A program made the translations under genes and the position numbers. Source: a virus. Taken from it: 64,000 nucleotides of DNA. The notes beneath the pieces were generated by a model. The model ran no database searches. It had not been told where the DNA came from and was given only the letters and a program-made list of their open reading frames with translations. The stretch is from the IMG/VR virus record IMGVR_UViG_3300020055_000005, positions 1 through 64,000 of that record; one strand, 5' to 3'. Positions 1-37,256 of this stretch are shown here, one piece after another (within the stretch, counting starts at the first letter, position 1; every line of letters starts with the position of its first letter).

Positions 1-171
1 GAATTTGATTTCACCATCACCCACTATATTAGTGATGGGTTCCATCTTAGTATCTAAAATATAATAGGGATTGAATACACCTTTTCGTTGATAATCAGGT
101 GACACGGTCAACTCTGAAATTACTTTCGGAGTCGTCCTTTTAATACCTGAGAATTCTGAAAAACTTTTCAT
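1..171 (-). CDS. Hypothetical protein, 5' part only (MKSFSEFSGIKRTTPK...), runs off the window
   Basis: Manually translated open frame from ATG at 171. A near-consensus late promoter (GATAAATA, 177-184) lies just upstream. The MKSF-x-EF start resembles T4-like head-targeted proteins. Confidence 0.55.
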   Translation of the reverse strand, partial: MKSFSEFSGIKRTTPKVISELTVSPDYQRKGVFNPYYILDTKMEPITNIVGDGEIKF

Positions 172-23081: not shown

Positions 23082-23964
23082 TATCTAAATCTAACTCCAA
23101 TTGATTTTCTGTTTCTTCACTTACAACTTTATGAAAAGGACATTCAGGTGGTGGTGATTCTTCTTTATAAAACTTACCCTTCGGTTGCCAGTATTCACCT
23201 TTTCTATATGCACCCATTTGTAATGATACATTTCTTTCTTCATCACTCAACCCCTTATGTCGACCCCACTCATCCATAGATTTTGCATATTTACCATCTA
23301 AGTGAGTTGTCACACTAGAACGATTCTCTTGAAATGTTTGATGGTCGAACTGCATGTACGATGCATTCCATTCTTCTCTTTTGAAAGGTACAACCTGACA
23401 TAGTGGTGTACCTTCCTTAATGGTAAATGATTTCTGTACCTTTGGATAAAATATGATTTGTGCATTATCCATGTTACTGTTAAATGTATCAGTATCAATA
23501 ATTCCTTGCCATGTTGCAAAGTATTGATTCTGAAATAAGAAGGGGTCTAAGTAGAAACATGAATAGCCTGGAGGTGTAACAATGTTCCAAGGGTTTCTCA
23601 TTTTGAATGCATCATTGACAGGGCCATGAGTACCCATGTATTCAAATGCATTTCCCATTTGTGTATGATTATGTGAAGGTGATGCATAACCATCGTTCTT
23701 ATCTTTAGTATAGAACTCTGTTGAATCGGAATCTGTTCCTACACCACAGTTAACTTCCATATCTCTATTTGCAACGAGATACCATCCCATCTTTAACCAG
23801 TCATCCATTGCAGGACAGGCACGTACTGTTGTTATACGTTTTCCATGTACATCCATACCAACCTTGAGGGTTTTCCACCACTCAGGTTGAACCGTTTTCG
23901 CAAGAACTGGTCTAAAGTTCTTAACCGTGTCCGTATCGTATGAATGGAATTCTATCGTCGGCAC
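23071..23964 (-). CDS. Conserved oxygenase-cluster protein (DUF6065-like)
   Basis: CPAMDDW, NPW.I.TPPGYSC, GIIDTD and GTPL.QV.PFKR pattern. Confidence 0.6.
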   Translation of the reverse strand: MPTIEFHSYDTDTVKNFRPVLAKTVQPEWWKTLKVGMDVHGKRITTVRACPAMDDWLKMGWYLVANRDMEVNCGVGTDSDSTEFYTKDKNDGYASPSHNHTQMGNAFEYMGTHGPVNDAFKMRNPWNIVTPPGYSCFYLDPFLFQNQYFATWQGIIDTDTFNSNMDNAQIIFYPKVQKSFTIKEGTPLCQVVPFKREEWNASYMQFDHQTFQENRSSVTTHLDGKYAKSMDEWGRHKGLSDEERNVSLQMGAYRKGEYWQPKGKFYKEESPPPECPFHKVVSEETENQLELDLDNGS

Positions 23965-24664
23965 TGTACTTCGTCCTCCTGTCTGTTAATTTAACCTCGT
24001 CTCCTCTGATTACTATGGAACGTCTATCCATGTATCTTGCACTTTCATTTGGTGCATCTGCACCATGAGGTATTCTACCATCAAATAAAACTAAACGATT
24101 TGGTACAAATTCCACTTCTGCAATTTGATGGTTTTTAATATGTTCGTTTCTTCCTTGAAGACCCTGTTGTGGTGAATCATAAATTCTTAATGTACCACCC
24201 CATTTAGGGTTCCAAAATCTGTTATAATAATATAAAAAAGATAAGTTCCAATCATCATGATCATCACAATCTGAGTGTGTAGTTCCATGACATCCATGTG
24301 TTTGAGAATTTAAACCTGCATACTGAAATCTAACCCACTCAAATTCAAAATCTGTTTGAAGTTTTCTATTAAACCAAATCGGAACGACTGCATCTAAACG
24401 ATCAATATCTCCTTCAAGATTGTCCCCACGAAGAAAACTTGCACCCCAAAAAGAATGCATGGGTAATCCTGTAGGATTGTCTCCACCGACTTGATTGGTT
24501 TTAGACCAAATTGATGTTCTAGTAAATAGGTTGTCTATGTGGTGATGAAGTTCATCACTTAAATAATTATCTATTACATAAACTTTATCTAAAGGCAACT
24601 CGCAAATTTTAAAAGGTTCGTCTAAGTAGACGACCTCTAATTGATCATCATCCTGTTTGACCAT
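23921..24664 (-). CDS. 2OG-Fe(II) oxygenase (prolyl-hydroxylase-like)
   Basis: HSD...W...WGG...PNRLVLFDGRIPH...RRS. Start placed at MVKQ (24664). Confidence 0.85.
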   Translation of the reverse strand: MVKQDDDQLEVVYLDEPFKICELPLDKVYVIDNYLSDELHHHIDNLFTRTSIWSKTNQVGGDNPTGLPMHSFWGASFLRGDNLEGDIDRLDAVVPIWFNRKLQTDFEFEWVRFQYAGLNSQTHGCHGTTHSDCDDHDDWNLSFLYYYNRFWNPKWGGTLRIYDSPQQGLQGRNEHIKNHQIAEVEFVPNRLVLFDGRIPHGADAPNESARYMDRRSIVIRGDEVKLTDRRTKYSADDRIPFIRYGHG

Positions 24665-25235
24665 TTCCCTGCGTTTCCATATAAGAGTCAGGAGCAAGTA
24701 ACGGTGTTGGTATAACAACACAGTAGTCATCTACTTCCTTTAAGAAATCCTCTCTAGTGTTATTAATTTCATCTTCGATTTGTACATAACAACACCACAC
24801 TGCATCAGCATATTCTGCAACTCTTCTGGCCGCTGACCTTCTAGGATGTGAAGACCCTTCTCTACCTGCAAAAACAACTTCAATCAAATCATCAAAACCG
24901 TATCTATGCACAACCTCTTTAATGAATTCATGACAAATATTATTGATTTCTTGTTTGTGTTGTTGATTTAAATTAAAACCGATAGGTGGTTCAGAGTTTT
25001 CAATGTATAGTTCAATCGCATCCTTTTCTTCATCTGTTAAGGGAAGTGCATCTTGTTTTTCAAAATCTACACCATCTTTCCATTTTACAATCTTAATTTC
25101 TAAGTCTGCGTACACTAACATTTCATAATCAAAACCCAAGTCAGGTGCATCGCAATTGTCAAAACTGTATCTCAAACCATTAGGTTTAGTGATTTGTAGA
25201 TTACCGTCTTCTGTAAATATTAATTCACTTTTCAT
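24648..25235 (-). CDS. Probable tail-fibre assembly/chaperone-like protein (DUF4376-like C-terminus)
   Basis: RYGFDD...AEYADAVW pattern resembling phage fibre-associated proteins. Confidence 0.45.
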   Translation of the reverse strand: MKSELIFTEDGNLQITKPNGLRYSFDNCDAPDLGFDYEMLVYADLEIKIVKWKDGVDFEKQDALPLTDEEKDAIELYIENSEPPIGFNLNQQHKQEINNICHEFIKEVVHRYGFDDLIEVVFAGREGSSHPRRSAARRVAEYADAVWCCYVQIEDEINNTREDFLKEVDDYCVVIPTPLLAPDSYMETQGNGQTG

Positions 25236-25255: not shown

Positions 25256-25284
25256 ATTATAACCTGTCATTGACTTTTTGTCAA
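25256..25284 (-). promoter_or_regulatory. Perfect sigma70 promoter TTGACA-17-TATAAT driving the oxygenase cluster
   Basis: Minus strand TTGACA AAAAGTCAATGACAGGT TATAAT, followed by AGAGG RBS and the ATG at 25235. Confidence 0.85.
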
Positions 25285-26849
25285 GCAAGTACTCTCCATT
25301 TTTTATAGATGTCTAAATTATTTATGTGGTCACAATCCATACCTTCTACCCAAGGGCCTCCCCTAGTATAATGGATACCACTGAAATCCCACTTAACATC
25401 AGGGTCATCATATCCTTCTACAAATATGTATTTCTCAGGAATCTTACTGATCTTATCAGTCCATTCAAACTGATGGAGTTGTTTACCTGTCCAAGTGTTC
25501 ACTGTTTCAGGTGTAAGTTTTTTACAATCTTCATGACCATTATTAAATATCATCATACTAGACCATAATTTTTTTGGATAGTCTATGTTCACTTCTCCGT
25601 TAAACTTAGTTTCATCATGTTTATATTGAGGATACTGAATACATGCAACTGCATCATCAGGATGTAGATAATAGAACATAGGTAATAAAGTTTTTTCAAA
25701 AATAAAATCATCATCTATGAAAATACTAAAACCCTCGTAATTTTCTAAGTAAGGAATTAAAAACCTACTGTATGTAAACTCTGTTGATTGATTTGCATAC
25801 TCTCTAGTATATTCAGGTATCTTTGATACATCTAATAGTTTTATTTCAGGTTCGTATCTTATTTCATTAATTAAATGTCCTGCACCTGTATCTTTAAAAA
25901 TACTTTGTTCAATAGAAATTTTAGATACTTCTGCGAGGTTACCATGTCTACTATCGTAACCAATGTAAATGTTTAATGGTTTACCTTTACTTAAACTATG
26001 AACCTTTTTATTCCAATTGTAAATTTTTGGTCTGAACTCTTGCACATTCATCAGGTTACTGTTATATTCTAATGCACCCTGTATCAGTGTGAATGACACA
26101 TTATAGTGTCCACCCATACCCATTCTTTGTCCAAGGTCTTCTCGTAGACTTAATTTGGTTTTCCAATACTCCATGAAATCTTCGAATCCAATGGGTTCTT
26201 GATCGATGGTGTCGTATGCATCTGTAATACACAATTCCATATCAGGGTCACCCATCTCTTCAAAACAACCTGAACGTATAGAGCCTGGATGAATTCTTAG
26301 TTGATATCTACTATCTTTAACTAATTCTATTACTTGTCCTTGTATAGGTGCCCAAAGACCATCTTCTTGTATACTGTGTATTAACCAATGTGCCTTTGCA
26401 CTATGGTAATACATTGAGTTTAAAGATTCTAAATCTCGTTTGGATAATGCATATTCTTGTTCATTGACATGATCTCTTAAATCAATATACTCACCATTTG
26501 TATCGACTGTATCCATACCTGCAATTTGATTTTCATGATTGGGACGAGGTTTTTCAGTCCATCCTACTGGTAAGAATTTATGATAACATGGTGATTCGTT
26601 TTTTAGTCCATTGAACAAAGACCACTTTTCTCTTTTTCGTTCTTTCTCAAAATCTCCCCATTTAAAAATTTTTATAGGGGGTATAATTTCTTCAAAAACA
26701 TATTTAAGAATTGCGTATGTTTCTTTATCCTTGTATTCTTGATCTAATTGAAGTGACCCAAAATGATAATAGGTATCTTTCCAGTCAGTTTTACCTGCTA
26801 GTTCTTCTTTTGCTTGGGATACGGATTCTATTTTAATAAAATTACTCAT
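25281..26849 (-). CDS. Fusion: N-terminal ParB/Srx-like domain plus C-terminal GT-A glycosyltransferase (GT8/CDI-like)
   Basis: C-terminal IYIGYD, STEFTYSRFL.P, DDD, WSS.M.FN, LHQFEW and HYT.GGPW motifs. N-terminal LIHSIQEDGLWAPI...HPGSIR. Confidence 0.8.
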   Translation of the reverse strand: MSNFIKIESVSQAKEELAGKTDWKDTYYHFGSLQLDQEYKDKETYAILKYVFEEIIPPIKIFKWGDFEKERKREKWSLFNGLKNESPCYHKFLPVGWTEKPRPNHENQIAGMDTVDTNGEYIDLRDHVNEQEYALSKRDLESLNSMYYHSAKAHWLIHSIQEDGLWAPIQGQVIELVKDSRYQLRIHPGSIRSGCFEEMGDPDMELCITDAYDTIDQEPIGFEDFMEYWKTKLSLREDLGQRMGMGGHYNVSFTLIQGALEYNSNLMNVQEFRPKIYNWNKKVHSLSKGKPLNIYIGYDSRHGNLAEVSKISIEQSIFKDTGAGHLINEIRYEPEIKLLDVSKIPEYTREYANQSTEFTYSRFLIPYLENYEGFSIFIDDDFIFEKTLLPMFYYLHPDDAVACIQYPQYKHDETKFNGEVNIDYPKKLWSSMMIFNNGHEDCKKLTPETVNTWTGKQLHQFEWTDKISKIPEKYIFVEGYDDPDVKWDFSGIHYTRGGPWVEGMDCDHINNLDIYKKWRVLA

Positions 26850-26881: not shown

Positions 26882-27583
26882 CTATGTAATCGGTGTTGCT
26901 GGCCACTGTTGTGACAATACACCATCCCATCTTGCGACAGGAGTTCTACCTTGTCTAGCATACGTTGCAGGTTGTCTGTTCTGATATGTGAAAGGTGTTT
27001 GACCTTGTCTCGCATACGTACTAGGTTGTCTGTTTTGATATGTGAACGGTGTCTGCGAGTTCGAAGGATTTCTATATGTAAACGGCGACCTGTGATTATA
27101 TGTAGAAGGTTGTCTTGCGTTTGCAATATAAGGATACGGTTGTTGTGCATCCCTAATGTTAGGTTCCTGTGCATTCTTAATAGTAGGTTGTTGTCCATTT
27201 CTAATGTTAGGTTCTTGTGCATTCCTAATATTAGGTTCTTGTGCATTTACTGGATTTCTATATGTAAATGGTGACCTATAGTTATATGTAAACGGTTGTC
27301 TTGCATTTGCACGATATGGAACCCTATATGTAAATGGCACTCTATATGTAAAAGGTTGTCTCGCATTCGCAATATAAGGAACACGATATGTGAAAGGTGA
27401 CTGATAAGTCACAGGTTGTTGTGCGTTAGCAGGGTACCTTGCACTGTATGTGAAAGGAGACTGATAAGTTACAGGCTGTTGAGCATTCGCAGGATATCTT
27501 GCGTTGTAAGTAAACGGTGCTTGGCTGTTGACCGTGGCACGAGCCTGACCTTGCATCGATTGTCTGTGGAAACCTGTTGCCAT
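26882..27583 (-). CDS. Pro/Tyr/Gln repeat protein, zipper partner A2 (233 aa)
   Basis: 26 Pro-delimited units of 6/8/10 aa (aa 24-215); GAGAGG RBS. Confidence 0.85.
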   Translation of the reverse strand: MATGFHRQSMQGQARATVNSQAPFTYNARYPANAQQPVTYQSPFTYSARYPANAQQPVTYQSPFTYRVPYIANARQPFTYRVPFTYRVPYRANARQPFTYNYRSPFTYRNPVNAQEPNIRNAQEPNIRNGQQPTIKNAQEPNIRDAQQPYPYIANARQPSTYNHRSPFTYRNPSNSQTPFTYQNRQPSTYARQGQTPFTYQNRQPATYARQGRTPVARWDGVLSQQWPATPIT

Positions 27584-27601
27584 CTTACTTAATTCCTCTC
27601 A

Positions 27602-28906
27602 TTATTTCGTACTAATATTATGAACCATTAAACTATTTGCAAAGAAGTTATGATGTGGACTGTCTACACCAAAGTGATAAACCATCTCTTCATCTGCTTC
27701 TTCTATAGATTCAATAATTGACTCTGATAAATTTTGTTTTAAAATTGCATTGTTGATGTCTTTAATTGCATCACCGATCTGCAATTCTCCGTTGACTTCT
27801 TTCATGTCATCGGCATGTCCTAATTCTACTTCTTTATTCCAATCTTCTAAATTAATAACCTTCCATCCCTGATCTTCAACATAGAATGGATGACCACCTG
27901 TTACTTTTAACCACCCACCGTCTGTAAGTTGTAGTTTATAAACTTTACACTCTCTTGGTTCCATGACATTTGATACACTTACTCTTTCCAGTTCGTTACT
28001 TTCTAGATTAAGTGAATACACCACATCACCCACTTGGATGTTTTCTATAGGTGTCATTGAAGTGTCACCCATCCAAACTTGTGTTCCAGCAGCGAAACAT
28101 CCTCCTCCACCGTAGAAGTAAACTGCTAAGAAACGGAAAGGATATGTATACGGTTGTTGCGAAGAACTAGGTTGTCTTGCGTTTGCAATATAAGGCACCC
28201 TATATGTAAACGGTGATCTAAATGCAACTGGTTGTCTTGCGTTAGCAATATAAGGTACTCGATATGTGAAAGGAGACCTAAATGCAACTGGTTGTCTTGC
28301 GTTTGCAGGATATCTAGCATTATACGTAAATGGTGTTTGACCGTTTGCAGGATATCTAGCATTTGCAGGATATCTAGCATCATACGTAAATGGTGTTTGT
28401 CCGTTTCTTATATTAGGTTGTTGTGCATTTACAGGGTTTCTATATGTAAATGGAGACCTATGGTTATAGGTAAACGGTGATCTGTGTTGATACGTAAATG
28501 GTGACCTATGTTGATATGTAAATGGTGACCTATGTTGATACGTAAATGGTGATCGACCTGTTGCCTGATACGTGAAAGGTGTTTGTGCGTTCCTTATATT
28601 AGGTTCTTGTGCATTTACTGGATTCTGATATTCTGCAGGTTGTCTTGCGTTTGCAATGTAAGGTGTTTGTGCGTTTGCAATGTAAGGATAAGGTTGTTGT
28701 GCGTTAGCAATATAAGGCGTCTGACTGTTTGCAATGTAAGGATAAGGATTTTGAGTTGCTTCTTGACCTGATGCATTATTCCACCCTGTAGGTGTCTTAA
28801 TATAAATCTGATCAACTGCTTTCCATGCTGTGGGAGTCTTTACCCATGCACCCCTAGTTGCATTCCAACCTGTAGGTGTTTTTACGCTTTGATTACCTGA
28901 TGCCAT
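27602..28906 (-). CDS. Pro/Tyr/Gln repeat protein A1 with three N-terminal KTPT-W repeats and a C-terminal Hint (intein-like) domain
   Basis: Repeats at aa 55-246, then GGGG|CFAAGT...TGGHPFY...VYHF...HNFFANSLMVHN-ISTK. Confidence 0.9.
   Translation of the reverse strand: MASGNQSVKTPTGWNATRGAWVKTPTAWKAVDQIYIKTPTGWNNASGQEATQNPYPYIANSQTPYIANAQQPYPYIANAQTPYIANARQPAEYQNPVNAQEPNIRNAQTPFTYQATGRSPFTYQHRSPFTYQHRSPFTYQHRSPFTYNHRSPFTYRNPVNAQQPNIRNGQTPFTYDARYPANARYPANGQTPFTYNARYPANARQPVAFRSPFTYRVPYIANARQPVAFRSPFTYRVPYIANARQPSSSQQPYTYPFRFLAVYFYGGGGCFAAGTQVWMGDTSMTPIENIQVGDVVYSLNLESNELERVSVSNVMEPRECKVYKLQLTDGGWLKVTGGHPFYVEDQGWKVINLEDWNKEVELGHADDMKEVNGELQIGDAIKDINNAILKQNLSESIIESIEEADEEMVYHFGVDSPHHNFFANSLMVHNISTK
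27617..28099 (-). other. Hint/BIL autoprocessing domain (aa 270-430), no homing endonuclease
   Basis: Cys1, block-B TxxHP, terminal His-Asn; the +1 residue is Ile. Confidence 0.9.
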
Positions 28907-28940
28907 TTACCTTTAATCCTCTAAAATATACTCCTATTTA

Positions 28941-30569
28941 TTAGGAGTATAAAATCCACAAATCACCAACTGCACCATCTGAAGAAGTTGGAGCAGAGGT
29001 TGATTGATACACATTCCTTGCAACACCACCACTGTTATTTGCGTAGTTTGTAGTAATTTGTGTAAATTCTACGTTTGATGATGTTGATACTGCCTGACCG
29101 ATTGCAACTTCACCTGAACTGATTGAAACACCAGTTCCTGCAGTGATATGAGCTCTTACTTCAGCAGCACTTGGCCCTGTGTATGTAATTGTTCCACCAC
29201 TGTATGCAAGTGAACCATCTCCACCAGCGTCAGTTACAGTAATTGCAGCTCTCGCTCTTGTATCAGTATAATACAAGTTGGATGACCCTTCTGAAACATC
29301 GTCTGTATCATGGTTTGACACATCTGAAACTGTTCCAGTTACATTACCAGTTAGGTTACCTTCGAATGTTCCTGCAACAAAAGTTTCTGAACCTACTGTC
29401 CATTTGTCATTTGTTTCGTCCCAAAGAAGTGTCTTAGCAGTAGAACCACCTCTAGTGACACTAATACCTGTATCTTCTGTAGGTGAACCTGAAGTGAAGT
29501 TACTGTTTAATGCAATGATATTATCTGCAAGGTTAATTGTTTCTGAGTTTACAGTTGTTGTAGTTCCTGAAACTGTTAAGTCACCTGAGACTGTTAGTGA
29601 ATCATTAACTGCAACTACACCTGTTCCGTTTGCAGTAAGAACTAGGTTTGTATCTGCACTTCTTGACTCAATTGCATCTACATCAATTGAGTTTGAAAAT
29701 GAGATTGCATTTCCATCTGATGAAGCAACGTTTGAACCTGCCTGTACTGAGATCGGCCCTTTTAATTGGATACTACCTGAACCTGTTGGGTCTAATTCAA
29801 CGTCACCTGAACCTGATGTTTGGACACTAACATTTTGGTTCGCATCAGCAGAAACAACGATTGTTCCTGAACTATCTGATACTACTTGTTGACCGTTAAC
29901 ATATAATGACCCTGGCCCGACATACACATCTCTCCAAGTATATGAAGATGAACCTAAGTCGTATGTGTTGTCTGCACTTGGTACGATATGACCTGTTACG
30001 TCTGAATCTGCAGTAAGTGTTATACCTGCGAATGAAGGTTTATCTGAAGTTCCAACTGCCTGACCGATACTAACTTCACCTGAACTGATTCCAACACCAG
30101 TTCCAGCAGTGATATGTGCCTGTACTTCTGATGCACTAGGCCCTGTGTAAGTGAGTACACCTGTACTGTTATCGTATGCAAGTGAACCATCTCCACCTGA
30201 ATCTGTTACTGAAATCTTTCCTCTGATAGCAGCGTCAGTAATTGATAAATCAACTGCACCGTCTCCTGCATCATCGTAAGATGCAGTAATGTTAGTATGT
30301 GAACCGTTAGTTACTAACTGAGCACCAACGATATCTTGAATTTCTTCTTCAGTTTTACCAGTTGATGAGATTGTGATAGTGTCGTTTGTATCATCATAAG
30401 TTACAGTTGTTGAACCTGAACCTTGAATGATACCACCAATCTTATCTGCAATTGCTTCGTCTAAAGCAGTTCCTACTGCACTTGCAGTGATACTACCTGA
30501 ACTATCAATGACTTCGGTTGTACCAACCGTAAGTCCGTTCTTGATTATGAAATTCTTTTCTCCTGCCAT
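28941..30569 (-). CDS. Tail fibre protein
   Basis: G/S/T-rich; internal repeats (DGSLAY...TYTGPSA.EV.AHITAGTGV); L.VSG..TTVNS motif; C-terminal SAP..SDGAVGDLW. Confidence 0.85.
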   Translation of the reverse strand: MAGEKNFIIKNGLTVGTTEVIDSSGSITASAVGTALDEAIADKIGGIIQGSGSTTVTYDDTNDTITISSTGKTEEEIQDIVGAQLVTNGSHTNITASYDDAGDGAVDLSITDAAIRGKISVTDSGGDGSLAYDNSTGVLTYTGPSASEVQAHITAGTGVGISSGEVSIGQAVGTSDKPSFAGITLTADSDVTGHIVPSADNTYDLGSSSYTWRDVYVGPGSLYVNGQQVVSDSSGTIVVSADANQNVSVQTSGSGDVELDPTGSGSIQLKGPISVQAGSNVASSDGNAISFSNSIDVDAIESRSADTNLVLTANGTGVVAVNDSLTVSGDLTVSGTTTTVNSETINLADNIIALNSNFTSGSPTEDTGISVTRGGSTAKTLLWDETNDKWTVGSETFVAGTFEGNLTGNVTGTVSDVSNHDTDDVSEGSSNLYYTDTRARAAITVTDAGGDGSLAYSGGTITYTGPSAAEVRAHITAGTGVSISSGEVAIGQAVSTSSNVEFTQITTNYANNSGGVARNVYQSTSAPTSSDGAVGDLWILYS

Positions 30570-30802
30570 TAGATACTACCTCCATCAATTTGCACGTTTG
30601 CAAGTGTTTTTGATGCAGAACTATCGGCGAGATGTGTGTCTACTCTTGAAGTAGAAAAATACAAATTACTTGACCCTTCTGAAAGGTTGTCGGTGTCTAA
30701 GTCTGAGATTGCAGCTGCTTGTAATTTACCTGAACTGTTAATAATTTCCGTAGACCCAACTGTCAAACCGTATTCGATAACAAATGTGTTTTTAGTTGCC
30801 AT
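30569..30802 (-). CDS. Small fibre-associated protein
   Basis: N-terminus paralogous to the 542-aa fibre; DTD.LSEGSSNLY motif; ends IDGGSI. Confidence 0.75.
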   Translation of the reverse strand: MATKNTFVIEYGLTVGSTEIINSSGKLQAAAISDLDTDNLSEGSSNLYFSTSRVDTHLADSSASKTLANVQIDGGSI

Positions 30803-30867
30803 TTTTCGTGTGTCCTATGTCAAAATGTGGGTTATTATACTTTTATTTATGAAAGTATGACGTTCAA

Positions 30868-31704
30868 TCAAACATCTATTTCAATTTTTTTATATTTAAA
30901 TACAGTTGAATTGGTTGAAGCAGGTGAAATTTTTAGTTTCACATTACCACTTTCAATTGCAACTGAGAATGTAGCGAGTTCCGTAGTTCCTCCTGCAAGT
31001 ACGGTACCAAACTGAGAGAAGAATGCATTACTTCCATCATGTAATACATGTATCTCAGTCATCTGATATTCAGATGCAGTAGAATCGGATATCGATATAG
31101 TATATTTAACAGATCGATACGTTGAAGCGGAGAAAGAATCTAAATCGGTTTCTGATGTCGAGGTAGTTGTTGCAGTTCCTGAAGTTAATCCTGTTCCTGC
31201 ATCCTGAAATGATAGTGTACCACTACCATTGGTTGTGAGAACTTGACCATTTGTTCCATCTGTTGTTGGATATGCAATGTTTGAACCAGTGATACTATTC
31301 GTTACATTAAGTGTCGTTGCAGTCAAATCTCCTACTTCTAAGGCTGCTTTTGCGTATCCTGTTCCTGAAGTGTTGACTGTTGTAGTTGGTTCAACCTCTA
31401 AACCATCGAATAGTTTCCAAGTAGAATCTGATGCATCTCTGAATAAACCTGTGTATTCACTTGCACCTCCATCTGATAAACCATCATCATAATTACCATA
31501 CAAACCAATGTCAAGTGTGTCAGAACTCGTATTTGCATTTGCGAGTTCAAGCATTGAGTCTGCGACTGATGTAGTTGTTGAGTTAACTGTAATTGTTGTT
31601 CCATTTACAGTGAGGTTGCCTGCAATCGTAGTGTTACCATCGACAATCAAATCACCATTTGTAGAAAGCCCAATATCCGATAATAATTTTTGTTTTGTCG
31701 CCAT
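30868..31704 (-). CDS. Fibre/virion structural protein
   Basis: [22 protein letters not shown] repeat, shared C-terminal beta domain. Confidence 0.8.
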   Translation of the reverse strand: MATKQKLLSDIGLSTNGDLIVDGNTTIAGNLTVNGTTITVNSTTTSVADSMLELANANTSSDTLDIGLYGNYDDGLSDGGASEYTGLFRDASDSTWKLFDGLEVEPTTTVNTSGTGYAKAALEVGDLTATTLNVTNSITGSNIAYPTTDGTNGQVLTTNGSGTLSFQDAGTGLTSGTATTTSTSETDLDSFSASTYRSVKYTISISDSTASEYQMTEIHVLHDGSNAFFSQFGTVLAGGTTELATFSVAIESGNVKLKISPASTNSTVFKYKKIEIDV

Positions 31705-31709
31705 AGTAC

Positions 31710-31717
31710 TATTTATA
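31710..31717 (-). promoter_or_regulatory. Late promoter TATAAATA
   Basis: Exact consensus. Confidence 0.7.
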
Positions 31718-31735
31718 CTTTTTTAAAAGTACAGA

Positions 31736-31766
31736 TAAAAAGAAGGGGACGTAGTGTCCCCCTCTA
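31736..31766 (-). terminator. Rho-independent terminator
   Basis: Minus strand AGAGGGGGAC-ACTAC-GTCCCCTTCT then TTTT. Confidence 0.75.
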
Positions 31767-31784
31767 AAGATTGCTTACTGTTAA

Positions 31785-32195
31785 TTAAGCGTCAACTACA
31801 ATCCTATCGAATTGGATAACTGTAGAAGATGAAGATGCTGGTGTTACCAACAATCTTACATCACTTCCGTCGATATCTGCATCGAAAGTTGCAAGTGAAC
31901 TAGACTTCAGTGTACCATATTGAGTCATTGTTACACTACTACCATCGTGGACAAGCATAACTTCTGTTGAATGGAAGTCACTACCTTGTGACATAGCGAC
32001 GATATAACGTGCAGCTCTGAAATCTGTCTTTGCAAAGGTGTCGAGACTAAACTCAGTTGTAGAGGTTCTTGTTGAATTACCTCTCTTTGAGTTTTTATCT
32101 CTTGTTTTCTTTGCAGTAACGATTTCATCATTTGACGTATCGTATGAGAATACACGAATTAACTCAGCAATTTTAAAAGCATTTGTCTTAGCCAT
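31785..32195 (-). CDS. Virion structural protein (stand-alone copy of the shared C-terminal domain)
   Basis: LDTF...FRAARY...EV..VHDG....QYG...LATF. Confidence 0.75.
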   Translation of the reverse strand: MAKTNAFKIAELIRVFSYDTSNDEIVTAKKTRDKNSKRGNSTRTSTTEFSLDTFAKTDFRAARYIVAMSQGSDFHSTEVMLVHDGSSVTMTQYGTLKSSSLATFDADIDGSDVRLLVTPASSSSTVIQFDRIVVDA

Positions 32196-32208
32196 TTCTT
32201 ATATCCTC

Positions 32209-33033
32209 CTATGACATCCTAATTTGGAATGTATCCACTGTTGTATTAGTGTTAACAGGTGTAATGAGAAGTCTCATATTACCTGAATTAACGTCTGAAC
32301 TCAATGAGAACAATGATGCGTTTGAATATGTATCACCGTATTGTACGAAGTACGCATTCGACCCATCATTGATCAATAACACTTCTGCGGCATGTGTTCC
32401 TGCACTCGCATGAGTGGCAGTAATCACATACTTCACAGCCTTGTTTGCAACTGCATTAGATGATAAAACTTGATCAGATGTTGTTGCAGTGAAAGTATTT
32501 GCAGTAAAGAAACCTTGAACTAAGTTCGCAGCCTCTGTGATTGCAACTACTTCTACAACGTCACCTGAAATGGCGTTCTCAGTAAGTGTAATAACTGTAC
32601 TACTTGTTGCAGTATAGTCAGAACCTGAGACTAACTTAACACCGTTAATATACACTTGTTCTGTTCCTGAGGAATATGAAAGTGTATTACTATTATCATC
32701 TGCACCTGTAATTGAAGTACCAGTTGATGTAATAGAGTAGGTAAAAGTTACAACCCCTGAAGACGGTTGAGCGGCGAAACTTATTGTTCCACTACCATCT
32801 GTCTGTAGGACTTGACCTGAAGTACCATCTGAAGTTGGGAAAGAGTACGCATCGTTAACAGTAAGAGTTGCAGGATTTGACCCTACTTCAACAATTGAAG
32901 CAGAACCATCATCCTTCTCAGTATAGACTCTACCGTGATAGGTATTAATACCTATCTCACCTAATGATAAATCACTAGTTGATGGTACAGAATTCTGAGT
33001 TGAACTCCTCTTGAATTGAATTACTGTTGCCAT
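32209..33033 (-). CDS. Fibre protein with Mtd-N-like N-terminus
   Basis: VIQFKRS...P...L..GE; VYINGVKL module; shared C-terminal domain. Confidence 0.8.
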   Translation of the reverse strand: MATVIQFKRSSTQNSVPSTSDLSLGEIGINTYHGRVYTEKDDGSASIVEVGSNPATLTVNDAYSFPTSDGTSGQVLQTDGSGTISFAAQPSSGVVTFTYSITSTGTSITGADDNSNTLSYSSGTEQVYINGVKLVSGSDYTATSSTVITLTENAISGDVVEVVAITEAANLVQGFFTANTFTATTSDQVLSSNAVANKAVKYVITATHASAGTHAAEVLLINDGSNAYFVQYGDTYSNASLFSLSSDVNSGNMRLLITPVNTNTTVDTFQIRMS

Positions 33034-33062
33034 TTGCTACTCCTGTTATAGACTAAGTGTTA

Positions 33063-34634
33063 TTAAAATGTTCCACCGTCGATAGCAGTAATGCTTACAG
33101 CTCCTGAACTCACTGTAAAGTTATTTGAATCGTAAGAAGCAATACCTTTTGCAGATGTTGTTGCATCGTCGATAGCAACATCACCTGAAGTTACAGTGAA
33201 ATATGAACCTGAGAATGAAGCAATACCTTTATTTGAGTCTGTTGCATCCTCACCTGCGATAGTGATAGCACCATCTGCATTAGTGATGTCAACACCTTCT
33301 CCAGCTGTTAAAGCTGCAAGTTCCATGTCTCCGTTAGAGCCATTACCAATCATCAATTGACCTGCTGTTGGAGCAGCGCCGTCTAATGATGTGATTGAAC
33401 CTGAAAGTGCAAGACCTGATGCCTCTAAACCACCAAATACTGCGTTACCGACTGAACCTGAGAATACTGATGAAGAGTCAGTTGCATCTTGGATGAACTT
33501 AAACTTACCATCTGAATCGTCCATACCAAAGAAACCAACTTTAGCAGCTGAACCATTGTGCCACTTAAATTTGATACCTCTGTCTAGGTTGTCATCTGAT
33601 GCATCATCACCGATTTCAAATACAGGGTCTGCAACTGAAGTAGTTGTAGAGTTTACAGTTGTAGTTGTACCATTAACAGTTAAGTTTCCTGAAACTGTTA
33701 AGTTACCTGAAGCAGCGATATTAGTTGATGTAATATCGTCTGATGTCAGTGTACCGTCTACTTGAACATTGTTAAATTGAACGTTGTCAGATGTACCAAC
33801 TGACTGACCAATTGCAAATGTAACTGCTTGGTTAGCGGCAGATGTTGTTACACCTGTTCCACCTGTGAAAGTGATTGATTGTGAATCTAAATCGATTGCA
33901 CCAGTACCACTGTCAGCAGCGACATCTAAGTCTTGAGCTGTTACTTGAGAGTCAACGTATGCTTTAACTGATTGTTGTGAAGGAACTTTGACATCTGAAT
34001 CAGAAGACATGTCATCTTCGTCAACAAAGAAGTCAATCATACCGAGTTCAACAGCGCTGTTTGCGATTGTTACAGCACCTGCTGAATCCATTGTTACATC
34101 ACCACTGATTGCTACGTTATCAAATGAATCTGAACCGTCATGGACAAGAATGTGTCCTGATGCAGGGCTAGAAATATCTGAGTCTGTTGCGCCAGCAAGT
34201 GTTGAAGTAGTAGATAGGAATGAAAGTGAACCACTTCCGTCTGTTCCTAGTACTTGGTTTGCACTACCATCTGCTGAAGGTAATGTAAACGTTACATTAG
34301 AAGCTACTGAATCAGGAGCTTTAAGTGCTACATAGTTTACACCATTGTCAGAATCTTCTAATAACTGAACCTCACCACCAGCAGTCGAACCATTACCAAC
34401 TTTAAAGTTAGCAGGTGTTGCAGAAGAACCTGCAAGAATGTCTGTGTAGTATTTACCACCAATCGCATGGATTAATGGGGTTGAGTTATCGGAATCAACT
34501 GATTCGATAAACAGTTTAGCACCAGCACCTGAATTACTTCTGTCCTGAATATACGCTAATTCACCTTCCGATAAATCTGATACTGTAGGCGCAGAAGAAC
34601 CAGTACTTCTTTTAATTTGAATTACTGTTGCCAT
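33063..34634 (-). CDS. Tail fibre protein with Mtd-N-like N-terminus
   Basis: VIQIKRS...L.EGELA; LPSADG..QVL; [11 protein letters not shown]; AT...KGIA repeats; ends IDGGTF. Confidence 0.85.
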
Positions 34635-35036: not shown

Positions 35037-35369
35037 TTAACTCCTCGTTACTCCTGGCGTTACAATCGCTTGTCCTTCTATAACTCTAGTTGTATTTGAA
35101 CCACTAGTTATATTTAGATCATAAACATATCTTCCAGCATTCAATGCAGCAGTTTGAGTGTCATCAAGTGATAATGTAACCTGTCCAGTTGCAGCTGCAA
35201 TACTAGTTCCAAATGTCGCAGAGACAGTAGAAGAACTATATGTTTTTCTTATCTGTGCGGCCGCAGTATATCCATTTAAGTCTAAGATATCACCTGCTGA
35301 GTCAGTCACATCAACAGTAATACTGAAGTCTGTTCCTTGATCTATGTATAGGTTTGCAATTATAGCCAT
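35037..35369 (-). CDS. Virion structural adaptor (Ig-like; QG.DF...YVYD...R..EG...TPGV)
   Basis: Motif pattern typical of small T4-like structural proteins; late promoter at 35375-35382. Confidence 0.75.
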   Translation of the reverse strand: MAIIANLYIDQGTDFSITVDVTDSAGDILDLNGYTAAAQIRKTYSSSTVSATFGTSIAAATGQVTLSLDDTQTAALNAGRYVYDLNITSGSNTTRVIEGQAIVTPGVTRS

Positions 35370-35377
35370 ATAACTAT

Positions 35378-36094
35378 TTATACCTGAGTGTTACTTGGGT
35401 TCTTAGAGAACCTTGCAGTTGGTACAGATTGATGTATTTTTTCTACAGTACCTGTTTTATTTACGTACACTTCACTTAATTTTCTAAGTGTACCATTATC
35501 ATTTACATATACTCCTTTCACTTTTGCAATCGGGCCTACAGTTCTAGTAGTTGAATATGGTGCTTGATATGTAAATGGTGACCTCACCGTGTAAGGGAAC
35601 TGATAGGTTACTTGATATATAAACGGTGATTGTGCATTCGCAATATATGGTGATTGTGCATTTGCAGTGACCCTATATGTTGACGGTGATCTATGTTGAT
35701 ACGTAAACGGATTCCTTGCGTTTGCAGGATTGGGTTGTTGTGCATTCCTAATATTAGGTTCTTGTGCATTTGCAATATAAGGACTTGGATTTTGTGCCTG
35801 ATATGTATTAGGTTGTCTTGCGTTTCCAGTCGCTCTATAAATTAAAGGTTGTCTTGCATTTCTAATATTAGGTTCTTGTGCAGATGTAGGGTTTCTATAT
35901 GTAAACGGAGACCTATGGTTATAGGTGAAAGGACTCTGTTTAGTTGCACGATATGTAAATGGTGACCTTGCAATATACGGATAAGGTGTTTGACCAATAA
36001 GAGGTTGTCTTGCCTGATAAGTCGTTTGACCTTGCGCTTGATAAGTTGTAGGTTGTTGTGCAATATATGGTATTTGATAGTATCCTGTTGCCAT
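35378..36094 (-). CDS. Pro/Tyr/Gln repeat protein, zipper partner B2 (238 aa)
   Basis: MATG start; even-spaced Pro units; C-terminal VYVN..G repeats. Confidence 0.85.
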   Translation of the reverse strand: MATGYYQIPYIAQQPTTYQAQGQTTYQARQPLIGQTPYPYIARSPFTYRATKQSPFTYNHRSPFTYRNPTSAQEPNIRNARQPLIYRATGNARQPNTYQAQNPSPYIANAQEPNIRNAQQPNPANARNPFTYQHRSPSTYRVTANAQSPYIANAQSPFIYQVTYQFPYTVRSPFTYQAPYSTTRTVGPIAKVKGVYVNDNGTLRKLSEVYVNKTGTVEKIHQSVPTARFSKNPSNTQV

Positions 36095-36095
36095 T

Positions 36096-37256
36096 TTATA
36101 TTCCTAATGCCTGTCCATAAGTTGCGTTTAATGATATCATACCATGACTATATGTTGATGTATATACATTATTACTTGAATCCACACCCTTAACTGTGAA
36201 ACTAACACCTTGTGCTTGTGTCCATGTAGTACCATTAGGGTTTGGGCCGTTTGGTGTTACACATGCCTTCCACAGGAATTGTCTTGCACCACTAGTTGGA
36301 ACACTATAGTAAGTACCTGAACTATATCCAGCGTTAGTTGGTAATGGCCCTGAACTATAAGAGTAACAATAACTTGAACTACAGTCTTTACCACTACATG
36401 CTTGACTTGATACATCATATTTTACTGTAAATGTGGAACTGGTTGTCAATAGACCTTGATATAAAATGTAATCAGAATAAACAGTCGCCTGATATTGATT
36501 TGTATAACCAAACCACAATGCCTTAATAGAACTTTGGGCAGTTGCATTTGAGAACTCCATTGAACACCCTACCTCAGGTGGAGGGTTTGTGGATGCTCTT
36601 GATTGCGTAGTATACCAGTACCCAGCTGAACCAGTACCAGGCCCCCAAACTTGTTCTAGTGGGTCATAGATATATGCAGCTGGTTGTCTTGCATTATAAG
36701 ACGATCTTGCGTTTGCAATGTATGGATAAGGTGTTCTTCCTATAAATGGAGACTGATATGAATATGGTGTTTGACCAATTGTAGGCACTGGTTGTTGTGC
36801 GTTACTAGGTGATTGATATGACTGTTGTGCATTTCTAATCACTGGTTGTTGTGCATTTGTAGGATTTCTATATGTAAACGGTGACCTATAGTTGTACGTA
36901 AACGGTGATTGTTTATTTGCTGGTACCTGATATGTAAATGGTGTCTGCGAATTTGCAATATAAGGATTCGCTTGTTGTGCCGAATATGTAAATGGTGATC
37001 TGTGTTGATAAGTAAACGGAGACCTAACAGTGTAATTGAAAGGTTGTTGTGCGTTTCTTATAAACGGAGATTGTTGAACAGCAGGTGTCCTATATGTTAC
37101 AGGTTGTCTGTTGTTGTATGTTAGGGGTTGTCTTGCCTGTGCAGGTGTTCTACCAGTTGCCTGTTTGGTTTCAGGTGATTGTGCGTTAACTACTGCTTGC
37201 CCTTGATAGGGTTGTTGGAAAGTCGTCCCTGTGTTTATATAGATTTCATCAGCCAT
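36096..37256 (-). CDS. Pro/Tyr/Gln repeat protein B1 with C-terminal Cys-containing globular domain
   Basis: Repeats at aa 17-199; non-repetitive S/T/Y/G-rich domain at aa 200-386. Confidence 0.85.
   Translation of the reverse strand: MADEIYINTGTTFQQPYQGQAVVNAQSPETKQATGRTPAQARQPLTYNNRQPVTYRTPAVQQSPFIRNAQQPFNYTVRSPFTYQHRSPFTYSAQQANPYIANSQTPFTYQVPANKQSPFTYNYRSPFTYRNPTNAQQPVIRNAQQSYQSPSNAQQPVPTIGQTPYSYQSPFIGRTPYPYIANARSSYNARQPAAYIYDPLEQVWGPGTGSAGYWYTTQSRASTNPPPEVGCSMEFSNATAQSSIKALWFGYTNQYQATVYSDYILYQGLLTTSSTFTVKYDVSSQACSGKDCSSSYCYSYSSGPLPTNAGYSSGTYYSVPTSGARQFLWKACVTPNGPNPNGTTWTQAQGVSFTVKGVDSSNNVYTSTYSHGMISLNATYGQALGI

What the first reader, a model, noticed from the sequence alone, without database searches (positions are those of the whole stretch)
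26882..28906. Two neighbouring genes encode mirror-complementary proteins: an antiparallel protein zipper with a pairing code (pair A)
SEEN: I split both proteins at prolines, merging YP into the next unit. The 434-aa protein (aa 55-246) gives unit lengths 10,8,10,8,6,6,8,10,8,8,8,8,6,6,8,8,6,6,8,6,6,6,8,6,6,8. The 233-aa protein (aa 24-215) gives exactly this series in reverse: 26/26 units, 192 aa each, with constant register i+j=269. Unit identities follow rules: FTYRNP-VNAQxP, FTYRVP-AN(A/G)xxP, FTY(Q/N)HRSP-NIRNAQxP-type, FTYxARYP-Y(I/R)ANARQP, VAFRSP-VTYQSP, and YPYIANxxxP-xTYxxxGxxP. In this register Pro faces Pro, and the Tyr of xTY units faces Ala/Gly/Ser in all but the two VAF/VTY units. 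The run of four FTYxHRSP units faces the run of four NIRNAQEP-like units. KNOWN: even-spaced alternation and cross-strand aromatic-Gly/Ala packing are typical of antiparallel beta ribbons. INFERENCE: the two products form an obligate heterodimeric two-stranded filament (about 60-65 nm if fully extended at about 3.3 A per residue), a 'reverse-complement' code at the protein level. I do not know of a described phage appendage built this way.
Basis: partly seen in the sequence, partly recalled or inferred. Interest (0 to 1): 0.97.

Follow-up and report, generated by a model that had tools for sequence, protein, structure and literature searches.

The report
Mirror-coded two-protein phage fibre zipper
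Two neighbouring genes of an uncultured marine T4-like phage encode proline-punctuated repeat proteins that complement each other unit by unit when one is read backwards; 57 distinct gene pairs of very different lengths show the same pattern, which points to the two chains zipping together head-to-tail into a long fibre held in register by a pairing code I could not find described.

Summary
A1 (434 aa) and A2 (233 aa) have 26 Pro-delimited units whose lengths are exact mirror images. This gives 27 Pro-Pro coincidences at i+j=269, against 12-16 in any other register of this pair. Unit types are complementary: TY-type faces NA-type. The relation exists only at protein level; the DNA and RNA show no complementarity.

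It is a family rule. Among 57 distinct gene pairs (55 from marine viral contigs plus the window's two), the register is the short partner's length plus 36 or 37 in 50, while that length runs from 190 to 559 aa. There are 45 different unit architectures, mirrored indels and chain-swapped units. A conserved Trp-Trp pair falls in the same register in 50 of 50 pairs. Aromatic residues sit only at odd offsets from Pro (27% against 0%), the signature of beta strands.

My reading is an antiparallel, register-coded two-chain beta fibre shaft in the phage's host-recognition gene cluster. One end is conserved and the other variable. The number of chains per fibre is unresolved. The Hint domain on A1 looks like an optional self-removing cap.

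No structure prediction supports or contradicts this. The scan found the same family earlier on other genomes. I found no published description.

The parts
27602..28906 (-). Gene A1 (X1-type chain, 434 aa): head, zipper arm, Gly-rich linker and C-terminal Hint domain
   Evidence: ORF; units; Pfam hit
28745..28906 (-). A1 head, aa 1-54. It holds three KTPxGW-like repeats and is conserved across the family. From residue 36 it faces the C-terminal tail of A2, and its Trp42 faces A2 Trp227.
   Evidence: Many invariant columns in alignment A1; Trp-Trp facing in 50/50 pairs; antiparallel layout
28169..28744 (-). A1 zipper arm, aa 55-246: 26 Pro-terminated units of 6, 8 or 10 aa
28100..28168 (-). A1 aa 247-269: the last short units and a Gly tract that ends exactly at register position 269, just before the Hint cysteine
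27617..28099 (-). A1 Hint/intein-like domain, aa 270-430. It has Cys270, T336-x-x-H339 and H429-N430, followed by Ile rather than a nucleophile. I read it as a non-splicing, self-cleaving module.
   Evidence: PF14890 at 1.2e-11; TIGR01445 intein N-terminal region; residues read
26882..27583 (-). Gene A2 (X2-type chain, 233 aa), starting 18 nt after the A1 stop, with its own ribosome-binding site
26939..27514 (-). A2 zipper arm, aa 24-215: 26 units, the exact mirror of the A1 arm in length and opposite in type
26885..26938 (-). A2 conserved C-terminal tail, aa 216-233 (RWD...W.P motif), which faces the A1 head
   Evidence: Invariant columns in alignment A2
25281..26849 (-). Gene directly downstream (522 aa). 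Its C-terminal half has a GT-A, family-8-like glycosyltransferase fold. I take it as a candidate modifying or assembly enzyme of the fibre.
   Evidence: Adjacent downstream in 78 of 78 two-gene loci; AF2 pLDDT 86; Foldseek hits to LgtC, glycogenin, GlyE and UGGT; weak PF01501 hit
35378..37256 (-). Second pair in the same genome (B1 386 aa, B2 238 aa). It obeys the same code at i+j=201 and does not match the chains of pair A.

Best explanation
A1 and A2 are the two chains of one fibre shaft. They lie side by side in opposite directions in a single register (A1 residue i opposite A2 residue 269-i), as extended beta strands.

Each chain is a string of Pro-terminated units of 6, 8 or 10 residues, of two kinds. 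TY-type units carry Phe and Tyr. NA-type units carry Asn and then Ala or Gly. A unit must face a unit of the same length and the opposite kind, so that Tyr sits over Ala or Gly, Thr faces Gln, Ile faces Arg and His faces Arg. Because unit order is irregular, only one register and only the cognate partner satisfy the rule. The order of unit lengths and types thus acts like a sequence of base pairs that prevents slippage and mispairing with the second pair (B) made in the same cell.

One end is conserved: the A1 head plus the A2 tail, clamped by a Trp-Trp pair. I infer that this end docks on the virion. The other end (A1 C-terminus, A2 N-terminus) is variable. In relatives it carries nothing, a globular domain of about 150 aa, or, as here, a Hint domain that probably cuts itself off at Gly269/Cys270.

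Shown here: the complementarity, its conservation and co-variation, the two-residue periodicity, and the gene context. Inferred: physical pairing, beta conformation, presence in the virion, polarity of attachment, and Hint cleavage. The number of pairs per fibre (one, or three as in a six-stranded needle) is open.
For: (1) Exact mirror of 26 units and 27 Pro-Pro coincidences at one register, p about 3e-10.
(2) 78 of 80 related viral loci carry exactly two adjacent same-strand genes of this kind.
(3) Among the 57 distinct pairs analysed (55 from those loci plus the window's pairs A and B), the best register is len(X2)+36 or +37 in 50, over len(X2) 190-559. The cognate partner ranks first in 51 of 57. 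Mean Pro match is 0.87, against 0.52 for non-cognate combinations.
(4) There are 45 distinct unit architectures, with zipper spans of 154-532 aa.
(5) Of 2055 matched unit pairs, 1537 are TY opposite NA in either chain orientation, 45 are TY/TY, 3 are NA/NA and 470 include a unit my pattern left unclassified.
(6) Compensatory changes. The window pair and L001 have the same length, but the central units are swapped between chains in both partners. Crossing the partners drops the match from 27 to 16 and 21.
(7) Mirrored indels: +18/+18, +44/+44 and -8/-8 at positions summing to within 1-7 residues of the register constant. L1 against L2 gives r=0.999 in 24 pairs.
(8) Independent of the Pro used to set the register, the conserved head Trp faces the conserved tail Trp in 50 of 50 pairs, at Pro parity.
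(9) Beta signature: 99.9% of unit lengths are even. The aromatic fraction is 0.274 at odd offsets and 0.000 at even offsets. Facing pairs Q-T, A-Y, G-Y, I-R, H-R and E-F are enriched 3- to 8-fold. The strongest covariation falls between positions on the same face, facing or diagonal.
(10) There is no nucleotide-level complementarity.
(11) Context: the genes lie in the fibre / host-recognition cluster next to the VrlC-like baseplate gene, flanked by fibre-like genes (PMC7029224).
(12) Pairs A and B in this one genome do not cross-match: 13-14 coincidences, against 27 and 17.
Against: There is no direct structural or biochemical evidence, and nothing shows that either protein is in virions.

A beta ribbon of 150-530 residues per strand has no precedent, and Pro every 6-10 residues is unusual for a regular sheet.

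Three related pairs (L023, L039, L048) differ between partners in the copy number of a 44-aa super-repeat, and L068 and L072 differ from their close relative L065 in the length of the X1 end (tail +24 and -30 against +6). These are either short-read assembly errors or real tolerated bulges and overhangs.

Covariation cannot fix the physical register to better than +/-2 residues, because facing and diagonal positions co-vary as blocks.

Pair B matches less completely: 17 of 27 Pro.
Confidence: 0.75

Rival explanations
1. The pairing is real, but the fibre is a trimer of pairs: three A1 and three A2 form a six-stranded antiparallel needle. This would be like the out-and-back strands of the T4 gp37 needle domain, with the hairpin split into two genes. 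It is a rival only to the reader's strictly two-stranded filament, and it is compatible with my best explanation.
For: Phage fibres are usually three-fold. [quoted passage not shown] One face of the strands is aromatic or small (Tyr, Phe, Ala, Gly) and the other is Pro or polar, which suggests a buried face.
Against: There are no His-x-His metal sites like those of gp37 (read; iron-His described in PMC6957217). Pro occupies 28% of the even positions, which would weaken hydrogen bonding to a second neighbouring strand. No sequence similarity to gp37 families was found.
Confidence: 0.3
2. A2 is not a structural partner. It is a full-length template or chaperone that pairs with A1 only during folding and is then released, as tail-fibre assembly proteins are.
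For: Phage fibres often need dedicated chaperones encoded next to them. The complementarity shows pairing, not permanence.
Against: A chaperone that must match its client unit for unit over 150-530 residues and co-vary with it through 45 architectures would be very costly. The conserved A2 tail and A1 head form a joint conserved end, which fits a permanent structure better.
Confidence: 0.1
3. The Hint domain uses its thioester at Gly269 to join A1 covalently to the N-terminus of A2, which lies flush with it in the register. That would turn the two chains into one closed hairpin.
For: The register constant 269 equals the last residue before the Hint Cys270, so the two ends are adjacent. The Hint domain has Cys1, TxxH and a C-terminal His-Asn but no downstream nucleophile, so it does not splice.
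Against: Most relatives have no Hint domain and simply end 5-14 residues past the register end; these include L003/L036, whose X1 shows the highest identity to A1 in the locus search (71%, best segment) and ends in a similar Gly-rich tail. In Hint-bearing relatives where my pattern located the cysteine, it lies 1-11 residues past the register end, so the cut product resembles the Hint-less proteins. A2-type N-termini are similar in pairs with and without Hint and carry no Cys. No naturally fused single-chain form was found among the 368 proteins tested, 240 homologues first and the rest later.
Confidence: 0.07
4. The two proteins do not touch. Each forms its own homo-oligomeric fibre, and the mirror pattern is a by-product of DNA- or RNA-level events such as an inverted duplication or mRNA pairing.
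For: Both proteins are built from the same two unit types, so they are paralogous at the unit level.
Against: Both genes are on the same strand. There is no inverted repeat. Nucleotide complementarity is at background, and the best 60-nt window (31/60) equals codon-shuffled controls. No mutational process mirrors unit order while exchanging unit type. Compensatory swaps and mirrored indels recur in many lineages.
Confidence: 0.02

Closest known systems
Needle domain of the T4 long tail fibre tip, gp37 (six-stranded antiparallel beta needle; PMC7291167, PMC6957217)
   Same: A long, thin phage fibre element built from extended strands running out and back antiparallel. It is encoded in the fibre module of a T4-like phage.
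   Different: gp37 is one gene whose chain folds back, forms a homotrimer, and is held by seven iron ions bound by His residues of the three chains. Here the out and back strands are two separate gene products. There are no His-x-His sites. The strands are cut into Pro-terminated units of two complementary types with a length code. No sequence similarity was found.
Stalk of streptococcal antigen I/II adhesins (SpaP and relatives; PMC7732690)
   Same: Two different repeat regions, complementary to each other, run antiparallel and interlock (partly through Tyr) into a stalk more than 50 nm long that projects a distal domain.
   Different: There it is one polypeptide and an intramolecular pairing of an Ala-rich with a Pro-rich region; from my own recall, these form an alpha helix wound with a polyproline-II helix. 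Here there are two polypeptides with a two-residue (beta) periodicity and an irregular unit order that sets the register.
Heterodimeric coiled coils (leucine zippers) and register-specific collagen heterotrimers
   Same: Partner choice and register of elongated multi-chain assemblies are written in a simple repeating residue code.
   Different: Those are alpha-helical (heptads) or triple-helical (Gly-X-Y), and mostly parallel. Here the periodicity is 2, unit lengths are 6, 8 or 10, and the chains are antiparallel.
Tryptophan-zipper and other designed beta hairpins; aromatic-over-glycine cross-strand pairs (own knowledge; Trp/Trp stacking noted in PMC4471590)
   Same: Cross-strand Trp-Trp and Tyr-over-Gly/Ala pairs in a two-stranded antiparallel arrangement, as seen at the conserved end and along the arms.
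   Different: Those are hairpins of 12-16 residues within one chain. Here the arms are 150-530 residues on two chains.
Hint / bacterial intein-like autoprocessing domains, and self-cleaving C-terminal chaperone domains of phage fibres (function recalled from my own knowledge)
   Same: A C-terminal module that can cut itself off the mature fibre protein. The A1 domain matches intein and Hint profiles and keeps Cys1, TxxH and the terminal His-Asn.
   Different: It lacks the downstream Cys/Ser/Thr needed for splicing. It is present in only part of the family. I know of no described fibre that uses a Hint domain in this position.

Membership tests
Hint / intein superfamily (A1 aa 270-430) | Significant match to intein/Hint profiles | tested here: met
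   PF14890 at 1.2e-11, 45.1 bits, above the cut-off of 35.8. TIGR01445 at 25.8 bits, above the cut-off of 24.5.
Hint / intein superfamily (A1 aa 270-430) | N-terminal nucleophile (Cys1) and block B Thr-x-x-His | tested here: met
   Cys270 follows a Gly tract, and T336-x-x-H339 is present. Both are conserved in the Hint-bearing relatives (consensus).
Splicing intein | C-terminal His-Asn followed by a Cys/Ser/Thr at +1, and a C-extein to be ligated | tested here: not met
   H429-N430 is followed by Ile, with only 4 residues before the stop. In relatives that keep the terminal His-Asn it is followed by Gly, Arg or Met. This makes it a cleaving rather than a splicing module.
T4 gp37-type needle | Single chain that folds back; repeated His-x-His iron sites; homology to gp37 families | tested here: not met
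   There are two genes. No fused form was found among the 368 proteins tested. The arms have no His-x-His. There is no Pfam, NCBIfam or PHROG match.
T4 gp37-type needle | Six-stranded, three-fold antiparallel assembly | not testable with these tools
Phage tail or side fibre (generic) | Encoded in the structural / host-recognition module next to other fibre genes | tested here: met
   The genes lie between the VrlC-like 2363-aa baseplate gene and the neck side, among fibre-like ORFs. A homologue of the 542-aa gene immediately upstream in the window (it matches a PHROG structural-protein family) was found in all 80 loci and lies upstream in the 78 with two genes. An LtfC-like protein follows pair B (PMC7029224).
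Phage tail or side fibre (generic) | Protein present in the virion | not testable with these tools
   No cultured phage carries the pair, and no proteome is available.
Collagen-like or polyproline-II fibres | Three-residue periodicity (Gly-X-Y, or Pro every third residue) | tested here: not met
   Unit lengths are 6, 8 or 10 and 99.9% even, and residues alternate strictly with period 2.
Antiparallel beta ribbon (structural class) | Two-residue alternation of side-chain character; Pro confined to one parity; cross-strand partners satisfy i+j=constant | tested here: met
   Aromatic fraction 0.274 against 0.000 by parity. Pro only at even offsets of the 6-, 8- and 10-residue units. A constant register in 50 of 57 pairs. 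The conformation itself has not been observed.

The most novel reading that the evidence does not exclude
Nature has evolved a protein analogue of a nucleic-acid duplex. Two unit types in three lengths pair like complementary bases along two antiparallel chains. Partner choice, register and fibre length would then be written in a readable code that can be extended. It would also allow non-interfering pairs: A and B coexist in one phage without cross-matching. Fibre length would be tunable from about 50 to about 180 nm by matched insertions in the two genes.
Probability: 0.6. Interest if true: 0.95.

Novelty: categorically new. Interest (0 to 1): 0.9.

Why it matters
If the chains pair as the sequences imply, this is a new way of building a long biological fibre and a new kind of protein-protein recognition. 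Specificity and register would come from the order of short complementary beta units rather than from a folded interface.

It would explain how an abundant group of uncultured marine myoviruses sets and varies the length of a host-recognition appendage, through matched indels in two genes.

It would offer protein engineers a natural, modular and apparently orthogonal beta-strand pairing code. Such codes exist for coiled coils but not for beta structure.

It also poses an evolutionary puzzle: how two slippage-prone repeat genes stay complementary.

Tried and rejected
- Complex prediction of A1(30-269) with A2, using family alignments: score 0.00, no verdict. It counts neither for nor against.
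- AlphaFold2 of A2 alone with 19 sequences: pLDDT 38 and no secondary structure. So there is no sign of a self-contained fold, but this is weak evidence.
- Cultured phages: blastn and tblastn of the genes, and of the conserved 64-aa head, against 50,697 phage records gave nothing. The low-complexity filter may hide repeat matches. All database relatives I looked up are unnamed metagenomic proteins.
- Pfam, PHROGs and NCBIfam give nothing for the repeat arms. The ESM Atlas gave only chance-level scores of 0.81 or less.
- Naturally fused single-chain (fold-back) versions: none among 240 homologues, and none when all 368 fetched proteins were tested. The long hits of the exhaustive search are unrelated low-complexity proteins.
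- DNA/RNA-level explanation: rejected.
- A sliding-window local-register scan was confounded by internal 18-aa and 44-aa periodicities. I replaced it with the global register.
- I aligned the C-terminal domain of B1 with the roughly 150-aa tip domains of relatives, hoping to fold it. Identity was only 15-26%, so I dropped it.
- Literature: the unit motifs as text strings gave 0 papers. Keyword searches and the pelagimyophage and Melnitz papers do not mention these proteins.
Full report
WHAT IS THERE. The window is part of a 151-kb record of an uncultured T4-like marine myovirus. Its 2363-aa VrlC-like baseplate protein is about 30% identical to those of the OM43 phage Melnitz and of cyanomyophages. 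The finding lies in the variable region that the pelagimyophage literature calls the host recognition cluster, next to VrlC (PMC7029224). Two co-oriented, tightly spaced ORFs are present as described: A1 at 27602-28906(-), 434 aa, and A2 at 26882-27583(-), 233 aa. They are 18 nt apart, and A2 has its own ribosome-binding site.

- In the antiparallel register i+j=269 there are 27 Pro-Pro coincidences. Other registers of this pair give 12-15, its best parallel register 16, and the best antiparallel register of the other combinations of the four repeat proteins in the window 13-19.
- With the unit composition fixed, an exact mirror has probability 2.8e-10. 200,000 shuffles never shared more than 21 of 26 boundaries.
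- The third-position aromatic of the TY-type units faces Ala 20 times, Gly 3 times and Ser once. The only exceptions are the two VAF/VTY unit pairs, and the only unmatched Pro are the inner Pro of three YPY motifs.
- Every unit of one kind (TY-type) faces a unit of the other kind (NA-type) of the same length, except those two pairs.

IT IS A PROTEIN-LEVEL RELATION. The genes are on the same strand, and no inverted DNA repeat connects them. Nucleotide complementarity in the protein register is 0.345, against 0.313 +/- 0.034 for other registers. The best 60-nt match between one arm and the reverse complement of the other (31/60) equals codon-shuffled controls.

IT IS A FAMILY RULE, WITH COMPENSATORY CHANGE.
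- A scan of viral contigs returned 80 loci, and 78 of them carry exactly two adjacent same-strand repeat genes.
- That gives 57 distinct pairs: 55 from the loci plus the window's pairs A and B. The best antiparallel Pro register equals the length of the short partner plus 36 (43 pairs) or 37 (7 pairs), while that length ranges from 190 to 559 aa.
- The cognate partner gives the best match for 51 of 57 long chains. The mean matched fraction is 0.87, against 0.52 for non-cognate combinations.
- The pairs represent 45 different unit architectures, with zipper spans of 154-532 aa.
- Of 2055 matched unit pairs, 1537 are TY opposite NA, with either chain carrying either type. Only 45 are TY/TY and 3 NA/NA; the other 470 include a unit that my crude pattern left unclassified.
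- The window pair and L001 have almost the same length, but several central units sit on the opposite chain, in both partners at once. Exchanging partners drops the match from 27 to 16 and 21.
- Related pairs differ by indels of equal size in both genes at mirrored positions. Examples are +18/+18 with position sums of 370 against a register of 374, and 345 against 346. There are also +44/+44 and -8/-8 in one comparison.
- For the 24 pairs without a C-terminal domain, the two lengths correlate with r=0.999.
- A check independent of Pro: the invariant Trp of the third head repeat of the long chain faces the invariant Trp of the short chain's tail in 50 of 50 pairs, at the same parity as Pro.
- The window's second pair (B1 36096-37256, B2 35378-36094) obeys the same code at i+j=201 and does not match the chains of pair A.

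WHY BETA STRANDS.
- Matched unit lengths are even in 99.9% of cases.
- Within units, Phe, Tyr and Trp occur only at odd offsets from the preceding Pro (27.4% against 0.0%), together with Ala, Gly and Ser. Even offsets hold Pro, Gln, Arg, Thr, Ile and Asn. A strict period of two with two chemically different faces is the signature of an extended strand. It is incompatible with collagen or polyproline-II periodicity.
- Facing pairs are strongly non-random: Q-T, A-Y, G-Y, I-R, H-R and E-F are enriched 3- to 8-fold.
- Within 8-residue unit pairs, the strongest covariation is at a directly facing pair of positions (z=49). The others lie at facing or diagonal positions of the same face, and cross-face pairs are weak.
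- From general knowledge of sheets, Pro can sit only where the backbone NH points away from the partner strand. Placing all Pro at one parity on both chains is what a two-stranded ribbon needs, and it would also discourage sideways aggregation. This last step is inference.

ANATOMY AND LIKELY WORKING.
- One end is conserved: about 54 residues of the long chain, with three KTPxGW-like repeats, and about 18 residues of the short chain's C-terminus. I infer that this joint end docks on the particle.
- The other end, where the long chain's C-terminus meets the short chain's N-terminus, is variable. In 31 pairs the long chain stops at most 24 residues past the register end (5-14 in 28 of them, 18 and 24 in two, and 30 short of it in L072). 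In ten it continues into a domain of about 140-156 aa (pair B has 185 aa), and one (L029) has a 95-aa repeat extension. In fourteen, including A1, it continues into a Hint domain.
- Where my pattern located the Hint cysteine (9 of the 14), it lies 1-11 residues after the register end, so self-cleavage would yield a product like the Hint-less proteins. L003/L036, whose X1 shows the highest identity to A1 in the locus search (71%, best segment), have no Hint.
- A1's domain has Cys270, T336-x-x-H339 and H429-N430 but Ile at +1, so it should cleave and not splice.
- I therefore read the Hint as an optional, self-removing cap rather than a ligase. The short chain's N-terminus is similar with or without Hint and has no Cys.
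- If fully extended, the pair A arm would be about 63-65 nm. Across the family the range would be about 50-180 nm. This is arithmetic, not measurement.

WHAT IS NOT SETTLED.
- The complex prediction gave no verdict.
- A2 alone is predicted without any fold, which does not contradict the model but is weak.
- Stoichiometry is open. The second would resemble the six-stranded antiparallel needle of T4 gp37 (PMC7291167; iron-His sites in PMC6957217). The arms have no His-x-His sites.
- Three related pairs (L023, L039, L048) have unequal copy numbers of a 44-aa super-repeat, and L068 and L072 differ from L065 at the X1 end (tail +24 and -30 against +6). Short-read assembly of 132-bp tandem repeats could cause this, but real bulges cannot be excluded.
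- No cultured phage carries the pair. All relatives I looked up are unnamed metagenomic proteins. An exhaustive search finds 157 representative clusters, 96 of them at E <= 1e-10.

COMPARISON WITH KNOWN SYSTEMS. The nearest analogues are:
- the gp37 needle, which has out-and-back antiparallel strands but is one chain, a homotrimer, and metal-clamped;
- the antigen I/II stalk, where two complementary repeat regions interlock antiparallel but within one chain (PMC7732690);
- coiled-coil zippers, which have a residue code for partner and register but are helical and mostly parallel.
None of them has two separate chains, a period of two, and an irregular order of complementary units that sets the register. 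Text searches for the motifs and for related keywords found no description. The scan had already flagged and confirmed the same family on other genomes. My tests here were done independently on this window and on freshly fetched loci.

ASSOCIATED GENES. A 522-aa protein is encoded directly downstream of the pair in all 78 two-gene loci. Its model is confident (pLDDT 86). Its C-terminal half has a GT-A fold closest to family-8 transferases that act on proteins or glycans: LgtC, glycogenin, GlyE and the UGGT catalytic domain. A 2OG-Fe(II) oxygenase (PF13640) follows in 60 of 80 loci. Modification of the fibre by hydroxylation or glycosylation is therefore plausible but untested.

Noticed in passing
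window 25281-26849 (-): A 522-aa protein sits immediately downstream of the zipper pair in 78 of 78 related two-gene loci. AF2 gives pLDDT 86. The C-terminal half has a GT-A, family-8-like glycosyltransferase fold (LgtC, glycogenin, GlyE, UGGT), with a conserved acidic motif (D379 and D381 invariant). The N-terminal half is unassigned. It is a candidate fibre-modifying enzyme.
   Followed up: partly
window 23921-24730 (-) and 24648-25235 (-): A 2OG-Fe(II) oxygenase (PF13640, 2.8e-9) and a 195-aa protein of unknown family follow the transferase. Homologues lie downstream in 60 and 77 of 80 loci. The two ORFs overlap as listed, so the oxygenase probably starts at a later Met.
   Followed up: partly
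window 35037-35369 (-): A 110-aa protein right after pair B matches the LtfC-like / L-shaped tail fibre assembly families (PHROG 3304 at 5e-23; PF23926 at 2e-4). No homologue of it was found in the 80 loci, which were fetched with the A1 protein.
   Followed up: no
L015:5445-5729, L017:5377-5652, L024:6220-6477, L049:5563-5862, L058:5651-5950: In five of the loci where the long chain carries a C-terminal domain of about 150 aa (all five I inspected), an extra 86-100-aa ORF sits between the two zipper genes. It may be a tip chaperone or accessory protein. The 20 loci with a 300-350-nt gap between the genes probably share this layout.
   Followed up: no
L023, L039, L048 (also L068, L072): In L023, L039 and L048 the partner genes differ in the copy number of a 44-aa (132-bp) super-repeat. 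In L068 and L072 the X1 end is 24 residues longer and 30 residues shorter than the register end, against +6 in their relative L065. These are either short-read assembly errors or natural intermediates in which one gene has changed and the other has not yet followed.
   Followed up: partly
window 153-164 of A1 and 106-117 of A2 (protein coordinates); the same motif occurs in B1 and B2: A TY-type 6-mer directly followed by its complementary NA-type 6-mer occurs in both chains at facing positions. This gives a local two-fold (self-complementary) site, present in all four zipper proteins of this genome and in the relatives I displayed that carry it (L001, L003, L007, L022). It may be a nucleation point.
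   Followed up: no
window 28935-28943 (-): A TAATAAATA motif, one mismatch from the T4 late-promoter consensus (consensus recalled from my own knowledge), overlaps the stop codon of the upstream fibre-like gene about 30 nt before the A1 start.
   Followed up: no
window 28941-34634 (-): A run of fibre-like ORFs lies upstream of pair A (542, 77, 278, 136, 274 and 523 aa). Several share the N-terminal motif typical of phage fibre proteins (two begin MATVIQ) and C-terminal blocks similar to one another. Homologues of three of them (542, 278 and 77 aa) lie upstream of the pair in most related loci.
   Followed up: partly
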